Assembly (NCBI RefSeq): GCF_030013595.1
Contig: NZ_CP122768.1
Source of the DNA: Escherichia coli
Lineage (GTDB): Bacteria; Pseudomonadota; Gammaproteobacteria; Enterobacterales; Enterobacteriaceae
Direction: 5' to 3' (one strand)
Length of the DNA: 64,000 nt
Shown: positions 46,601-52,600 of the stretch, in pieces
Position numbering within the stretch: position 1 is the stretch's first letter
How the letters are laid out: every line of letters begins with the position of its first letter
Made by a program: the position numbers

Positions 46601-49600
46601 TGCCAACGGTGTTCACACTGCGGATATAAAAGTAATAATCATGGCCCGGTTTGATATTGATACTGGCGGCTATCCAGTACAGCCCCGTGCCAAGGTAGCG
46701 GGCTGTGGTTTCAACCTGCCTGATATCGGTAATCCGCGTTTCCGAGAACCAGAACTCAAACTGTACCGTCGGATCATAAACCGCAAGATGCGGCGTGGCA
46801 GTTATCTGAAAATAGCCCGGCGTCAGCTCAATCTGTGACGGCGCTGCCGGTGCGGCAATCCGGAACGATACCGATGCCGGATCGCCCTGCTGTCCCCACG
46901 CATTTACCGCCCGGACTGTCAGCCTGTAGTTCCCCAGCGCCAGTTGCCTGAAGCGGTATGTGGTTTCCGCCGTCCGGGCCGTGCTGACCAGCAGCTCACT
47001 GCCGTCATCCGCTGCCACGGTCAGGCGAAGCAGGAAACTCACGCCCTTCACCACCTTCGGCGTGTCCCAGCGCGCCAGCACCTGATATTCCCCGCTGTCT
47101 GCGGTGACTTCGGCGGTCAGGTGCTGCACCGCTGGCGGCGTGACACCATTCACCGTGCCGCTCTGGTCGCCGTCAAAGTGCGCCCCGTTATCCACGATGG
47201 CCTCTTTTTCCGGTACATGCTGCACGGCGGTGATGGCATACGTGCCGTCGTCGTTCTCACGGATACTCACGCAGCGGAACAGGCGCTGGCGCAGCGTCGG
47301 CAGCTTCAGCCCCCACACGCTGTATTCAGCAACGCCGTCAGGAACACGGCTCACTTTCACCTTCACGCCGTCGGTGACGGACTGAACCTCCACGCTGACC
47401 GGATTGCCACTTCCGTCAACCAGGCTTATCAGCGTGGTACCGGAGGATGGCAGAGTGATTTCACGGTCGAGCGTCAGCGTCCGGGTCTGGCTGTTTACCG
47501 CCAGCACGCGCCCGCCGATGCTGATACCCGCATAGTCATCATCGCAGATTTCAATGACATCCCCCGGTACATGGCGAAGCCCTTCCGCACCCACGCTGAA
47601 GTCCACGGTCTGCGTTTCCAGCAGTTCCGTTTTAATCAGCCACAGCCCGGCGCGGTGCGCCTGCCCCCGGCTGGTACAGCCAAAGGCATCCATCTTCGTG
47701 ACGTTACGACCGTAACGGGCAATGGCCTGCGTATCTTCAACAAGCTCTGTCGCCGTCTCCCAGCCGTTGTTCGGGTCAATCCAGTTCACCTCAACGGCAT
47801 TATGGCGGTCCTTCAGGGCGCTGAAGCTGTAGCGGAACGGCGCGCCATCATCCGGCATCACCACATTACTGCGGTTATAGGTCCACACCTTATCTGATGG
47901 TCGGTCCTGCACGAACGTCAGCGTCTGCCCGTTCCATACCGGCATACAGCGCATCGCCGAGCAGAAATCACTGAGCACATCCCACGCCTTGCGCTGTGTG
48001 GTCAGGTACGCATTACAGGTGATGCGCGGCTCCGTGTCGCCAAAGCCGTCCGGCACCGACTGGTCGCAGTACTGGCCGATGACATACAGCGCCCATTTAT
48101 CTACATCCGCTGCACCAAGACGTTTCCCCATGCCGTAGCGCGGATGGGTCAGCATATCCCACATACACCAGGCCATGTTGTTGCTGTATGCCGGTTTAAA
48201 CGTTCCGTCCCAGATACCGCTGTATTGCCGCGTCTGCGGGTTATAATTCGACGGCACCTGCAGAATACGCCCGCGCAGATGATAATTACGGCTCACCTGC
48301 TGGCTGCCGAACTGCTCCGAGTCCACCTGCACGCCGACCAGTGCCGTGTTCGGGTAGCACTGTTTCACATCGATGATTTCGGTGTATGACGACCAGAGCG
48401 TTTTGTTCTGCAGCTGGTCTGTGGTGCTGTCCGGCGTCATCCTGCGCATCCGTATATTGAACGGGCGCGGCGGCAGGTTACCCACCACCACCGAGGCCAG
48501 ATACTGCGAGGTGGTTTTGCCCTTAATGGTGATGTCTTTTTCCGTCACCCAGCCACCGTTACGCTGTATCTGAACCAGCAGGCGGACTTCCGACGGATTC
48601 CTGTCCCCCTTTGAGGTGGTTTCCACCAGTGCCTGCACGCCGAAGGTAAAACGCAGTCGGTCAATGTTTGCCGACGTGATGGTCCGGGTGATCGGCGTGT
48701 CGTATTTCACTTCCGTACCCAGCACCGTCTCGGAGCCGGAGGATTCAAATCCCTCCGGCGGTGTCTGCTCCTGCTCACCGGCCCGGAACACCACCGTGAC
48801 GCCGGAGATGTTGGTATTCCCCTCACTGTCCAGCACTGGCGTACTGTTCAGCAGCACGCTTTTTAATCCATCCACCGGACCTTCAACCGGCCCTTCGCTG
48901 ATGGCATCAATCACACTCAGCAGCTGCGTGGATTTCAGGTTGTCCTTCGCTTCGCGCGGGGTATGCCCCTTACTGCTGCCTTTACCCATTCGTCATGCTC
49001 CATAAACGATAAAACCGCCCGGAGGCGGTTTCACATAAAACGTTTTTCATCAGCGACCAATCACCACAACCTGACCACCATCACCTTCATCTGCTGTGCT
49101 GATCTCCTGAGATACCACACGTGATCCCACGCGCATTTCACCGTACAGAACGGGCAGAACATTGCCCTGGGCAACCATATTATCCAGTGAAGAAAAATAG
49201 GTGTTCTGTTTGCCGTTATCCGTTGTCTGTGTGCGGGGGGTTTTGGGTTTAGGGGCCAGCATCTGTGCAACACCGCCAAGCGTCATACTGGCACCGAGAG
49301 AAAACAGCAGATTACTCGCCATAATTCCTACCCCCGGCATCCATATAGCAACCGCCATAACAGCCGCCCCCAGCACAGCCTGAAACACACCGCCACTTTT
49401 GGCTCCTGCCAGACGCGGCACGATATGGATCACAGCACCATTTGCCAGCGGTTCATTAAGACGGGCTGATAATTCCGTTTCACCTGTATCACGCCCGGCA
49501 ATGCGTACCTGATACCAGCCGTCGCTCAGCTTCTGACGAAACGCCGGGATCTGCATGGCCAGCGCCCGGATAGCTTCGGCCCCCGTTTTCACACGCAGAT

Positions 49601-52600
49601 CGATGCGGCGGACAAATCGTTGTAAATCCCCGTAAAGGCAGATGCGCGCCATGACCGGTGACGCCAGAGGGAGTGTGTGCGTCGCTGCCATTTGTCGGTA
49701 TACCTCTCTCGTTTGCTCAGTTGTTCAGGAATATGGTGCAGCAGCTCGCCATCACCACAGTAAATGGCGGCATGATTCGGCACCGATGAACCAAAACAGC
49801 ACAGCAGCACATCGCCCGGTTGTGCTGATGACAACGGCACCTGATACAGCCCTGTGGCCTCCAGATTATCCAGATAGAGATTCTGACCGTGACGCCACCA
49901 GTCATCCCCGCGATGAAAATCCGGCATCTCAATCCCCGCCAGATGATAAGCATCCCGGAACAGCGTGTAACAGTCCGTCACCCCGTGCTCAAAGCGCCGC
50001 CCGGTGAGATGCGGCACACAGCGGAACTTGTGAATCGCCCCCCGGCAGACCAGCCACCACGGCAAATCACTCTGCACCTGCAGCCGCCGGTCAGCCTCAC
50101 TCAGCCAGGGCAGACCACCGGGATGACTGTGGACCAGTGCCACAATCTCACCCTGCATCTCTGCCTGCAGCCAGTCCTCCGGAGCCATCCGGAAATAATC
50201 CTCCGGCTCACCGGAAATATTCACGCAGGGAAAATATCTTTCCCCCTCCGGCGCTCTCACCACGAAGCCGCACGACTCCGCTGGCGCACATCGCCGGGCG
50301 TGCGCCAGAATCGCTGATTCTGTCTCTGTCATGGGATTACTGCGAAAGTTTGTTAATGGAAAGGAAGCCGCCAAAGTTGCCGACGTTATTGCGAAACTTA
50401 CAGCCGCTCAGGCATTTGCTGCATTTATCCTTCGTGATATCGGACGTCGGCTGGTCATATTCATCCGCGACTGCCGGACCGTGATAACCGCACTCATCAC
50501 CGCGATAGGTCCAGGTGCAGGTGTTGGCCAGCATGATACGTCCCGGAAAAACAGCGCCATCCGTTTCCGTCGGCGTGGACAGTACAAAGGAGGCACTCAC
50601 CGCGCTCAGTTCGCTGCACTGCTCGATGCGCCAGCGGCTGATCACCTCCTGCTCCGGATCGGCGTCACTGTTTCCGTTGACGAAGTTCACCGCATCCAGA
50701 AAACGGGCGTAAACCTTACGCCGGACCACCGTTCCGCCGACCAGACTCTGCAGATCTTCCGCCATCCCGGTGACCATACCGTACAGGTTAGAAACCGTCA
50801 GCGTGGGGCGCGTACTGGTGCCTTTGCCATTCAGTTCAAAACCACTCCCCTGAATGGGATACGGCTGATACTGTCGCCCCTGCCAGGTGACCGGCACACC
50901 TTTTTCGTTCTGCTCATTACAGAAAAAATAACGTTCTCCACCGACCTCTGTCAGGTCGATTTCCCAGAGCACCACGCTGGCCGACTGCTCCGCACGGGTG
51001 CATTCATTCAGTGTTTCCTGCCGGATATCCTGCATCAGTTCACCACCTGTTCAAACTCTGCGCTGAACTCAACACGCAGCATACTGACCCGCGACGACCA
51101 TTTTGCGCAGGTCACCTTTATCTGCCGCCACTCATAAGGCGGCGTCCACAGAAAGGCTTTCCAGCCCCCGTGCTCTTCCAGAAACGACTCCAGTACCGTG
51201 GCCTCCTCACGGGGGACAGAAAGCGTCACGCTGTACGTTTTCAGGTTGGCATTCAGCCCGGCAGGCGCTCGCTGGGAATAGCCATCACCAAAGCGCACCT
51301 TTCTTACAGAAGGGGCCGAAGCCACATCCATACCGGGTTTCACTTTCCAGCGGAAGGTTTTCATCGTCCACCTCCGGAGAACAGTCCACCATCACGCATC
51401 TGTGTCTGAATTTCATCACGGGCACCCTTGCGGGCCATGTCATACACCGCCTTCAGAGCAGCCGGACCTATCTGCCCGTTCGTGCCGTCGTTGTTAATCA
51501 CCACATGGTTATTCTGCTCAAACGTCCCGGACGCCTGCGACCGGCTGTCAGCCAGACTGCCCGGTGTACCGACATAACCACCGGTGGCATAGCCGCGCAT
51601 CAGCCGGTAGAGATTCCCCACGCCAATCCGGCTGGTTGCCTCCTTTGTGAAGACAAATTCACCACGGTGAACAATCCCCGCTGGCTCATATTTGCCGCCG
51701 GTTCCCGTAAATCCTCCGGTTGCAAAATGGAATTTCGCCGCAGCGGCCTGAATGGCTGTACCGCCTGACGCGGATGCGCCGCCACCAACAGCCCCGCCAA
51801 TAGCGCTGCCGATACTCCCGACAATCCCCACCATTGCCTGCTTAAGCAGAATTTCTGTCATCATGGACAGCACGGAACGGGTGAAGCTGCGCCAGTTCTG
51901 CTCACTGCCGGTCAGCATCGCCGCCATATTCTGTGCAATACCATCAAAGGTCTGCGTGGCTGCACTTTTTACCTGCGACATACTGTCCGTGGCGCTCTCT
52001 TCCCACTCACTCCAGCCGGACTTCAGGCCTGCCATCCAGCTCCCGCGAAGCTGGTCTTCAGCCGCCCAGGTCTTTTTCTGCTCTGACATGACGTTATTCA
52101 GCGCCAGCGGATTATCGCCATACTGTTCCTTCAGGCGCTGTTCCGTGGCTTCCCGTTCTGCCTGCCGGTCAGTCAGCCCCCGGCTTTTCGCATCAATGGC
52201 GGCCCGTTTTGCCCGTTGCTGCTGTGCGAATTTATCCGCCTGCTGCGCCAGCGCGTTCAGGCGCTCCTGATACGTAACCTTGTCGCCAAGTGCAGCCAGC
52301 TGGAGTTTGTACTCCAGCGTCTCATCTTTATGCGCCAGCAGGGATTTCTCCTGTGCAGACAGCTGGCGACGTTGCGCCGCCTCCTCCAGTACCGCGAACT
52401 GACTCTCCGCCTTCCACAAATCCCGGCGCTGCTGGCTGATTTTCTCATTTGCTCCGGCATGCTTCTCCAGCGTCCGGAGTTCAGCCTGAAGCGTCAGCAG
52501 GGCAGCATGAGCACTGTCTTCCTGACGATCGCCCGCAGACACCTTCACGCCGGACTGTTTCGGCTTTTTCAGCGTCGCTTCATAGTCCTTTTTCGCCGCC

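What the first reader, a model, noticed from the sequence alone, without database searches (positions are those of the whole stretch)
49589..50374. Tail protein K frame open well upstream of the lambda-style start
The K frame is open for 261 codons from 50374, while the lambda-equivalent 199-aa protein would start at the internal Met at 50188. The frame begins MAASFPL at 50374 inside the 3' end of L, with MTETESAILAHARRC at 50332 just past the L stop; the HSHPGG JAB-type motif falls after the internal Met. A longer K isoform or translational coupling with L is possible.
Basis: partly seen in the sequence, partly recalled or inferred. Interest (0 to 1): 0.25.

Follow-up and report, generated by a model that had tools for sequence, protein, structure and literature searches.

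The report
Tail gene K is 247 codons
The prophage tail-assembly gene K here is an ordinary 247-residue two-peptidase protein that starts just after gene L; the shorter 199-residue "lambda-style" version comes from a one-base gap in the 1982 lambda reference sequence.

Summary
On the minus strand the K frame is open from TTG 50374 (261 codons), with ATG 50332 four bases after the L stop and ATG 50188 matching lambda's annotated start.

The interpretation needs reversing. ATG 50332 is the normal start and gives a 247-aa JAB/JAMM + NlpC/P60 protein.
- **Domain evidence:** residues 1-48 carry the catalytic Glu19 of the JAMM motif, helix 1 and two core strands. The 199-aa form falls below Pfam's Prok-JAB cutoff.
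- **Conservation:** homologs at 33-58% identity align from their own N-termini. pN/pS for codons 1-48 is 0.27.
- **Existing annotation:** RefSeq's PGAP pipeline already annotates the 247-aa form, and this exact protein is deposited as "C40 family peptidase".

The 199-aa lambda K exists because J02459/NC_001416 lacks a G after 14266. Five other lambda-derived records carry that G. So do 55 IMG/VR contigs (none without it) and 2,093 complete E. coli genome records (none matching the G-less version at ≥99% identity).

The TTG 261-aa extension is not conserved. A 1-nt indel in the L-K spacer closes that frame in 55 of 90 relatives.

Translational coupling to L is plausible: the gap is 4 nt and there is no Shine-Dalgarno sequence. 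It is untested. A minor 199-aa product from the GGAGG-preceded internal ATG cannot be excluded.

Ordinary and already known.

The parts
49589..50332 (-). Gene K, best-supported CDS: 247 codons plus TGA stop (49591-49589); tail tip assembly protein K, annotated 'C40 family peptidase'
   Evidence: 86 of 91 related loci have a 247-codon ORF from this ATG. PGAP and phage 21 annotate this start. The exact protein is in NCBI. It is 95% identical to corrected lambda K.
49997..50332 (-). JAB/JAMM (MPN+) metallopeptidase domain, residues 1-112
   Evidence: Pfam PF14464, 52.7 bits, profile 4-103/114. The homolog profile hits PDB JAMM domains 2kks, 2kcq and 5lda from profile position 2-4. AF2 pLDDT is 97-98 for residues 1-48, which form H3-15, E21-27 and E30-36. 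Foldseek top hit is PfJAMM1 5ld9/5lda.
50276..50278 (-). Codon for Glu19, in the conserved P17-x-E19-x-C21-G22 stretch; the Glu of the JAMM motif EXnHS/THX7SXXD
   Evidence: Near-invariant across 44 divergent homologs. Motif definition from PMC300881. It lies upstream of the lambda-style start.
50090..50131 (-). H68-S69-H70 ... S78-x-x-D81, the zinc-binding part of the JAMM motif
   Evidence: H68, H70 and D81 are invariant; S69 and S78 are near-invariant. Sequence read.
49661..50002 (-). NlpC/P60 (C40) papain-like peptidase domain, residues about 111-224; Cys121 (49972-49970), His187, His199
   Evidence: Pfam PF00877, 47.6 bits, full profile 1-105. D120, H187 and H199 are invariant and C121 near-invariant. 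PDB MepS/Spr hits.
50333..50339 (-). L stop codon TAA (50339-50337) plus the 4-nt spacer TCCC before the K ATG; probable termination-reinitiation junction
   Evidence: The spacer is 4 or 5 nt in 90 of 91 relatives. The ATG has no SD (duplex dG +0.7 kcal/mol).
50372..50374 (-). TTG, the mechanical start of the 261-codon ORF; not a supported start
   Evidence: No SD. The frame is closed, with no TTG-equivalent start, in 55 of 90 relatives. The 261-aa sequence is absent from the 15-billion-protein collection. Homolog N-termini align to ATG 50332.
50186..50204 (-). Internal Met49 codon (ATG 50188-50186) preceded by the SD-like GGAGG (50204-50200) with an 11-nt spacer. This is the lambda-annotated start and a frequent gene-caller choice.
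   Evidence: Duplex dG -9.5 kcal/mol. Met49 is not conserved: the consensus is Ile in distant homologs, and 4 of 87 close relatives have CTG. A Logan caller picked it although the ORF is open upstream.
50198..50198 (-). Window base aligned with the G that is missing after position 14266 of the lambda reference J02459/NC_001416
   Evidence: Alignments A1 and A2; whole-arm diffs.
49589..49691 (-). K 3' end overlapping the 5' end of the gene I ORF (I ORF 49050..49691, -1 frame relative to K)
   Evidence: The I start is ambiguous: ATG 49691, ATG 49652 or GTG 49592.

Best explanation
The region encodes the ordinary lambdoid tail tip assembly protein K as one 247-residue polypeptide starting at ATG 50332, four bases after the L stop codon. 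It has an N-terminal JAB/JAMM zinc metallopeptidase domain (residues 1-112) and a C-terminal NlpC/P60 cysteine peptidase domain. The 48 codons upstream of the 'lambda-style' Met49 are an integral part of the JAMM domain: helix 1, two core strands and the catalytic Glu19. The 199-aa lambda K is an annotation artefact. The 1982 lambda reference lacks one G after 14266, which breaks the frame 12 nt before that Met, so annotators took the next SD-preceded ATG. Inferred, not shown: K is translated by termination-reinitiation coupling to L, because it has a 4-nt gap and no Shine-Dalgarno sequence. From the literature, not tested here: K acts as a non-virion assembly protease, probably processing the ubiquitin-like N-terminal domain of gpI.
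For: Domain evidence:
- Pfam Prok-JAB scores 52.7 bits over profile 4-103/114 with the upstream segment. From Met49 it scores 22.9 bits, below the cutoff of 25, over profile 63-103 only.
- An exhaustive search found 2,754 homologs. Full-length ones at 33-59% identity and 228-270 aa align from query residues 2-10 to their own residues 2-15.
- In a 44-sequence alignment G22 and N38 are invariant, and P17, E19, C21 and F47 are near-invariant. All lie upstream of Met49, which is itself not conserved.
- The homolog profile matches stand-alone solved JAMM domains from their N-termini.
- The AF2 model has pLDDT 96.8, with residues 1-48 forming H3-15, E21-27 and E30-36. Its best PDB fold match is PfJAMM1.

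Population and annotation evidence:
- 86 of 91 related loci have a 247-codon ORF from this ATG.
- pN/pS is 0.27 for codons 1-48 and 0.15 for the rest.
- PGAP annotates 744 bp in a 99%-identical E. coli locus. Phage 21 and lambda PV340536 are annotated at 247 aa.
- The exact 247-aa protein is deposited as 'C40 family peptidase'.

Lambda reference error:
- J02459 reads GGAGGC-TATTTCC. Lambda_AGU, DE3, lambda imm434, PV340536 and KT232076 read GGAGGCGTATTTCC.
- Lambda imm434, whose left arm is the laboratory (PaPa) type, differs from J02459 at only 3 sites in 22 kb, and this is one of them.
- In IMG/VR the G-less 33-mer occurs in 0 contigs and the version with G in 55.
- In 5,426 complete E. coli genomes, 0 records match the G-less version at >=99% identity and 2,093 match the version with G.

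Coupling:
- The L-K spacer is 4-5 nt in 90 of 91 loci.
- The ATG has no SD (dG +0.7), whereas H, M and L have -7 to -11 kcal/mol.
Against: There are no translation data (ribosome profiling or an N-terminal peptide) for this locus or for lambda K in anything I could read. ATG 50332 has no SD, whereas the internal ATG 50188 has a strong GGAGG, though with a long 10-11 nt spacer. Some initiation at Met49 is therefore possible. pN/pS is somewhat higher for codons 1-48 than downstream. I found no paper that states the lambda correction. A 2020 review still uses 199 aa. It remains formally possible that the stock sequenced in 1982 carried a private 1-nt deletion rather than a reading error.
Confidence: 0.88

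Rival explanations
1. Two products from one frame. Full-length K (247 aa) is made by coupling to L, and a shorter 199-aa K starts at the internal ATG 50188 using the GGAGG upstream. The short form would have an intact NlpC/P60 domain but a disabled JAMM domain.
For: GGAGG lies 10-11 nt upstream of ATG 50188, with duplex dG -9.5 kcal/mol, as strong as the SDs of H and M. ATG is present at codon 49 in 83 of 87 close relatives. Gene callers often choose it.
Against: Met49 is not conserved in distant homologs, where the consensus is Ile. Four of 87 close relatives have CTG. GGAGG is explained by the codons for the conserved Pro-Glu (CCG GAG G). The spacer is longer than optimal. A 199-aa product would lack helix 1 and two core strands of a compact, confidently predicted domain and would probably misfold at its N-terminus. 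There are no expression data.
Confidence: 0.08
2. K is the 199-aa lambda-style protein only, and the upstream 48 codons are untranslated spacer.
For: This is the annotation in J02459/NC_001416, UniProt TIPK_LAMBD, DE3 and lambda imm434. The internal ATG has an SD-like sequence.
Against: That annotation depends on a frame break that exists only in the reference sequence and in two other records identical to it over the stretch searched, OR974322 and OR474059. The upstream codons are conserved at the protein level to 33% identity, include invariant residues and the catalytic Glu, and are under purifying selection. The 199-aa form fails the Pfam JAB cutoff.
Confidence: 0.02
3. K starts at TTG 50374 inside L, giving a 261-aa protein with a 14-residue N-terminal extension.
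For: The frame is open from there in the window and in about 35 relatives with a 4-nt L-K spacer.
Against: There is no SD (dG -1.7). In 55 of 90 relatives a 5-nt spacer shifts the frame, so it closes 7-18 codons upstream of the ATG; only one of them has any upstream in-frame start, a GTG 3 codons before the ATG. Homolog N-termini and solved JAMM domains align to ATG 50332. The 261-aa sequence is absent from public protein collections.
Confidence: 0.02

Closest known systems
Bacteriophage lambda tail tip assembly protein K (gpK; UniProt TIPK_LAMBD / AAA96551.1, 199 aa; corrected 247-aa form XSB40720.1 in PV340536)
   Same: 95% identical over all 247 residues to the corrected lambda K. Same gene order H-M-L-K-I-J, same K/I overlap, same JAB + NlpC/P60 architecture.
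   Different: None in kind. The apparent length difference (247 vs 199 aa) comes from the G missing after 14266 in J02459. The window has a 4-nt L-K spacer (TCCC) where lambda has 5 nt (ATCCC).
RefSeq/PGAP 'C40 family peptidase' of E. coli lambdoid prophages (e.g. WP_032156900.1 in CFSAN061771) and phage 21 K (UMO75434.1)
   Same: Same start, 4 nt after the L stop, same 744-bp length, 97-99% DNA identity. The exact window protein is deposited (EIH9502304.1 and others).
   Different: Nothing substantive.
Stand-alone prokaryotic JAMM/MPN+ peptidases (Pyrococcus furiosus JAMM1, PDB 5LD9/5LDA; 2KKS; 2KCQ; haloarchaeal desampylase NF041370)
   Same: Fold and the motif E...HSH...S..D. Residues 1-112 superpose on PfJAMM1 (110 columns, rmsd 2.4-2.5 A). 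The profile match starts at their N-termini.
   Different: 23-26% identity. K is fused to an NlpC/P60 domain and sits in a phage tail operon. It scores below the NCBIfam desampylase cutoff (28.5 vs 130 bits). Its substrate is unknown; gpI's Ubl domain was predicted by Iyer et al. 2006 (PMC1779556).
NlpC/P60 (C40) peptidases such as E. coli MepS/Spr
   Same: The C-terminal domain matches PF00877 over its full length and has a conserved Cys-His-His.
   Different: 17-21% identity. There is no signal peptide or lipobox context. gpK is not found in virions (PMC10721106), so a cell-wall-degrading role during entry is not supported.

Membership tests
Prokaryotic JAB/JAMM (MPN+) metallopeptidase domain (Pfam PF14464) | Profile score above Pfam's gathering cutoff | tested here: met
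   52.7 bits vs cutoff 25 when the upstream segment is included. From Met49 alone it scores 22.9 bits, below the cutoff.
Prokaryotic JAB/JAMM (MPN+) metallopeptidase domain (Pfam PF14464) | Complete JAMM motif E-Xn-H-S/T-H-X7-S-X2-D (PMC300881) | tested here: met
   E19, H68-S69-H70, then seven residues (PGGLPWL), then S78-E-A-D81. All are invariant or near-invariant in 44 homologs. E19 exists only in the 247-aa form.
Prokaryotic JAB/JAMM (MPN+) metallopeptidase domain (Pfam PF14464) | MPN fold | tested here: met
   AF2 model pLDDT 96.8. Best PDB match is PfJAMM1 5ld9/5lda, probability 1.00, TM (target) 0.66.
Prokaryotic JAB/JAMM (MPN+) metallopeptidase domain (Pfam PF14464) | Zinc-dependent (iso)peptidase activity | not testable with these tools
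   Needs biochemistry.
NlpC/P60 (C40) peptidase (Pfam PF00877) | Profile score above cutoff and a conserved catalytic Cys-His-His/polar triad | tested here: met
   47.6 bits vs 23, profile 1-105/105. C121 is near-invariant; H187 and H199 are invariant.
Lambda gpK / TAPK tail tip assembly protein | JAB + NlpC/P60 two-domain architecture, encoded between L and I upstream of J (Iyer et al. 2006, PMC1779556) | tested here: met
   ORFs and Pfam for L (PF05100), K, I (PF06805) and J. 95% identity to lambda K. phrog_30 'minor tail protein' matches residues 1-247.
Lambda gpK / TAPK tail tip assembly protein | Required for tail assembly but absent from the virion | not testable with these tools
   Literature only: gpK was not detected by MS in lambda virions (PMC10721106). 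It is required for tail assembly and its location is unknown (PMC12617516).
Translationally coupled gene pair (termination-reinitiation) | Start codon within a few nt of the upstream stop, and no independent SD | tested here: met
   TAA-TCCC-ATG. Anti-SD duplex dG is +0.7 kcal/mol. The spacer is 4-5 nt in 90 of 91 relatives.
Translationally coupled gene pair (termination-reinitiation) | Downstream translation depends on upstream translation | not testable with these tools
   Needs L nonsense or polarity experiments, or reporter fusions.

The most novel reading that the evidence does not exclude
The SD-like GGAGG 10-11 nt before Met49 drives a second, in-frame initiation. The phage would then make both full-length JAMM-NlpC/P60 K and an N-truncated 199-aa K with a dead JAMM domain, an in-frame pair like lambda C/Nu3 or S107/S105. 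The ratio of the two would be set by coupling to L.
Probability: 0.08. Interest if true: 0.35.

Novelty: already known. Interest (0 to 1): 0.12.

Why it matters
For this window it matters little. The gene is a standard lambdoid K, and current RefSeq annotation already uses the 247-aa start.

The by-product has some curation value. The canonical lambda entries (J02459/NC_001416, UniProt TIPK_LAMBD) and records annotated by transfer from them (DE3, lambda imm434) give a K that lacks 48 residues, including the catalytic glutamate of its JAMM domain. That truncation hides the JAB domain from domain searches: the 199-aa clusters, about 11,000 member sequences, show only NlpC/P60. A 2020 review describes gpK as a 199-residue protein with a single peptidase domain.

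Anyone doing structure prediction, mutagenesis or biochemistry on gpK should use the 247-aa sequence. This includes tests of the proposal that K's JAB domain cleaves the ubiquitin-like domain of gpI.

Tried and rejected
- **Programmed frameshift in lambda K.** I considered whether lambda's frame break reflects a programmed frameshift. I rejected this because the break is absent from five other lambda-derived records and from every IMG/VR and complete E. coli match. I also saw no canonical slippery heptamer on reading the sequence; this was by eye, not a tool result.
- **Lambda_AGU as a re-sequencing of the reference strain.** I tried using LC730321 for this. It is not the same strain: it carries the Ur-lambda-type +C at 20835 and other differences. 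Lambda imm434, which has a laboratory (PaPa)-type left arm, served instead.
- **A -1 frameshift K-I fusion in the 103-nt overlap.** No X_XXY_YYZ site was visible by eye. The K-I and L-K fusion proteins in the database are almost all single-member clusters, consistent with assembly or sequencing errors. I did not pursue this.
- **Literature.** I searched for an explicit published correction of lambda K or for ribosome-profiling evidence and found none. The Liu et al. 2013 PNAS profiling paper and the Casjens & Hendrix 2015 review are not held in the library. From memory only, unverified: commercial lambda sequence notes list 'G deleted at 138, G inserted at 14266', which would match.
- **NCBIfam.** It gave only sub-threshold hits (desampylase, phage_NlpC_fam) and no named equivalog.
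- **Start of gene I.** Conservation of the two candidate ATGs in close relatives is uninformative, because both lie inside K coding sequence.
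Full report
**1. Observation**

The window carries a lambda-type tail operon on the minus strand:
- H, 51361-53922
- M, 51035-51364
- L, 50337-51035
- K
- I, 49050-49691
- J, 45492-48989

The K frame runs from a TGA at 50410-50408 to the TGA at 49591-49589. It contains three candidate starts:

| Candidate | Length | Position |
|---|---|---|
| TTG 50374 | 261 aa | inside the 3' end of L |
| ATG 50332 | 247 aa | 4 nt after the L stop TAA (50339-50337) |
| ATG 50188 | 199 aa | internal Met49 |

Lambda's reference annotation (J02459 and NC_001416) gives K as 14276-14875, 199 aa. That leaves an unexplained 148-nt gap after L in an otherwise tightly packed operon. The window's Met49 is the equivalent codon.

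**2. What the upstream 48 codons are**

They form the first part of a JAB/JAMM domain.
- **Pfam.** Prok-JAB matches residues 18-112 of the 261-aa ORF (profile positions 4-103 of 114, 52.7 bits). From Met49 only profile 63-103 remains, and the score of 22.9 bits falls below the cutoff of 25.
- **Motif.** The JAMM motif is E-Xn-H-S/T-H-X7-S-X2-D (PMC300881). Here it is E19, H68-S-H70 and S78-E-A-D81. The catalytic Glu therefore lies upstream of the lambda-style start.
- **Distant homologs.** An exhaustive HMMER search of 1.84 billion cluster representatives gave 2,754 hits. Full-length homologs at 33-59% identity (228-270 aa) align from query residues 2-10 to their own residues 2-15.
- **Conserved residues.** In a 44-sequence alignment G22 and N38 are invariant, and P17, E19, C21 and F47 are near-invariant. 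Position 49 is variable, with Ile as the consensus.
- **Solved structures.** A profile of that alignment matches stand-alone JAMM domains (2kks, 2kcq, 5lda) starting at profile position 2-4 and their residues 5-6.
- **Predicted structure.** The AlphaFold2 model has mean pLDDT 96.8 and pTM 0.91. Residues 1-48 form helix 3-15 and strands 21-27 and 30-36, at pLDDT 97-98. The best PDB fold match is Pyrococcus furiosus JAMM1, followed by MepS-type NlpC/P60 domains.

The C-terminal half is a full-length NlpC/P60 domain with conserved C121, H187 and H199.

**3. Population evidence for the start**

- Of 91 related loci (public phage records and IMG/VR contigs), 86 have a 247-codon ORF from the ATG that lies 4-5 nt after the L stop. 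The exceptions are three records carrying the lambda reference sequence, mEp332, and one locus whose junction did not match my search pattern.
- Among 78 unique alleles, pN/pS is 0.27 for codons 1-48 and 0.15 for codons 49-247. Both indicate purifying selection.
- Codon 49 is CTG rather than ATG in 4 of 87 relatives.
- The L-K spacer carries a 1-nt length polymorphism. It is 4 nt in the window and about 35 relatives, and 5 nt in 55 relatives. With the 5-nt spacer the K frame closes 7-18 codons upstream of the ATG. Only one of those 55 loci has any upstream in-frame start, a GTG 3 codons before the ATG.
- The junction therefore tolerates a frame-changing indel, so it is non-coding for K. The TTG-50374 extension is not a conserved feature.
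- The exact 261-aa sequence is absent from a 15-billion-protein collection. The exact 247-aa sequence is deposited as 'C40 family peptidase [Escherichia coli]', and the 199-aa form also occurs, as 'tail component'.
- PGAP annotates K as 744 bp starting 4 nt after L in a 99%-identical E. coli locus. Phage 21 and one lambda record (PV340536) also annotate 247 aa.

**4. Why lambda says 199 aa**

Aligned with the window, phage 21 and mEp332, the lambda reference lacks one base 12 nt before its annotated ATG. It reads GGAGGC-TATTTCC where the others read GGAGGCGTATTTCC. The deletion puts the upstream 48 codons out of frame. In the reference they continue as a 76-codon dead-end ORF.

Evidence that the G is normally present:
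- Five other lambda-derived records carry it: Lambda_AGU LC730321, DE3 EU078592, lambda imm434 OM418626, lambda PV340536 and lambda KT232076.
- Over the left 22 kb, lambda imm434 has the laboratory (PaPa)-type split stf. It differs from J02459 at only three sites: -G at 139, +G after 14266 and A20661G. Lambda_AGU shares all three.
- In IMG/VR the G-less 33-mer occurs in 0 contigs and the version with G in 55.
- In 5,426 complete E. coli genomes, no record matches the G-less 62-mer at ≥99% identity, while 2,093 records match the 63-mer with G.

The simplest reading is a base-calling error in the 1982 sequence. A private mutation in that stock is the less likely alternative. Only OR974322 and OR474059 also lack the G; both match the reference exactly over the stretch searched.

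The truncated annotation has spread by transfer. DE3 and lambda imm434 carry the G yet still annotate 199 aa. UniProt TIPK_LAMBD is the 199-aa sequence. A 2020 review describes gpK as 199 residues with one peptidase domain (PMC7291167). I found no paper that states the correction.

**5. Why gene callers also produce 199 aa**

ATG 50332 has no Shine-Dalgarno sequence; the anti-SD duplex dG is +0.7 kcal/mol. Met49 is preceded by GGAGG (dG -9.5) with a 10-11 nt spacer.

On a Logan contig where the caller produced a 199-aa K, the ORF is in fact open from the L stop. That protein represents a cluster of 4,936 members. The 199-aa clusters, about 11,000 member sequences with only NlpC/P60 recognised, therefore reflect start choice rather than real truncation.

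The GGAGG is accounted for by the codons for the conserved Pro-Glu (CCG GAG G).

**6. Mechanism**

- **Shown.** K is a 247-aa JAMM + NlpC/P60 protein whose coding sequence begins 4 nt after L.
- **Inferred.** With no SD and a 4-5 nt gap conserved in 90 of 91 relatives, K is most likely translated by ribosomes that terminate on L and reinitiate. H, M and L overlap their neighbours by 1-4 nt but also have SDs.
- **From the literature, not tested here.** gpK is required for tail assembly but is not found in virions (PMC10721106, PMC12617516). Iyer et al. proposed that its JAB domain releases the ubiquitin-like N-terminal domain of gpI (PMC1779556). That fits with only gpI residues 135-223 being resolved in the tail tip (PMC10721106).
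- **Not excluded.** Some internal initiation at Met49 could give a minor 199-aa product. I put this at about 8%.

**7. Verdict**

The feature is an ordinary, already correctly annotated lambdoid K gene. The apparent anomaly lies in the lambda reference, not in this window. Novelty: already known. Interest is low. The one useful by-product is the documentation that the canonical lambda K entry is N-terminally truncated by 48 residues because of a missing base.

Noticed in passing
window 49589-49691 (K/I overlap); I ORF 49050-49691: The start of gene I is annotated three ways in public records. ATG 49691 is lambda-style and has an SD (GAGAGG, dG -9.3). ATG 49652 is PGAP's choice; the Pfam Lambda_tail_I profile begins at this Met, which has no SD. 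GTG 49592 overlaps the K stop and is used in PV340536 and KT232076 (a Logan gene call likewise starts I at the K stop). Both ATGs are invariant in 142 close relatives, but they lie inside K coding sequence, so this says nothing.
   Followed up: partly
L148 (J02459) positions 139, 14266, 20661 vs L149 (OM418626) and L147 (LC730321): Besides the missing G after 14266, the lambda reference differs from both lambda imm434 and Lambda_AGU by an extra G at 139 and by A instead of G at 20661. These are likely further reference errors or mutations private to the sequenced stock.
   Followed up: partly
L003 (mEp332, PV340541) about position 956: mEp332 has a 1-nt deletion in the G5 run of K codons 29-30 (GGAGGGGGAAAG to GGAGGGGAAAG). 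Its K is annotated as 233 aa starting in the wrong frame. This is either a homopolymer sequencing error or a real frameshift.
   Followed up: no
window 50105-50332 (K residues 1-76): phrog_7305 ('unknown function', 76 positions) matches K residues 1-76 end to end. That is the same length as the frame-broken upstream ORF of the lambda reference, so this PHROG family probably consists of K N-terminal fragments.
   Followed up: no
public records related to L001: 'Campylobacter phage CJLB-4' (MW057783, 48,361 bp) is 99.8% identical to lambda across the L-K region. The exact lambda 199-aa K sequence also carries names from Staphylococcus aureus, and a cluster member comes from Bacillus paralicheniformis. 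This looks like lambda DNA contamination in public assemblies.
   Followed up: no
window 50331-51137 (+ strand): A 268-codon ORF runs antisense to L. It is also present in lambda as a 270-aa ORF antisense to L (L001 28-840). Nothing indicates it is expressed, and it is most likely a by-product of codon usage on the coding strand.
   Followed up: no
proteins P0014, P0025, P0031, P0036, P0094: The database holds L-K and K-I fusion proteins (Pfam PF05100+PF14464+PF00877, or with PF06805 added), nearly all in single-member clusters. They are probably indel errors at the short L-K spacer or within the K/I overlap. Iyer et al. 2006 also mention a TAPI-JAB fusion in one E. coli prophage.
   Followed up: no
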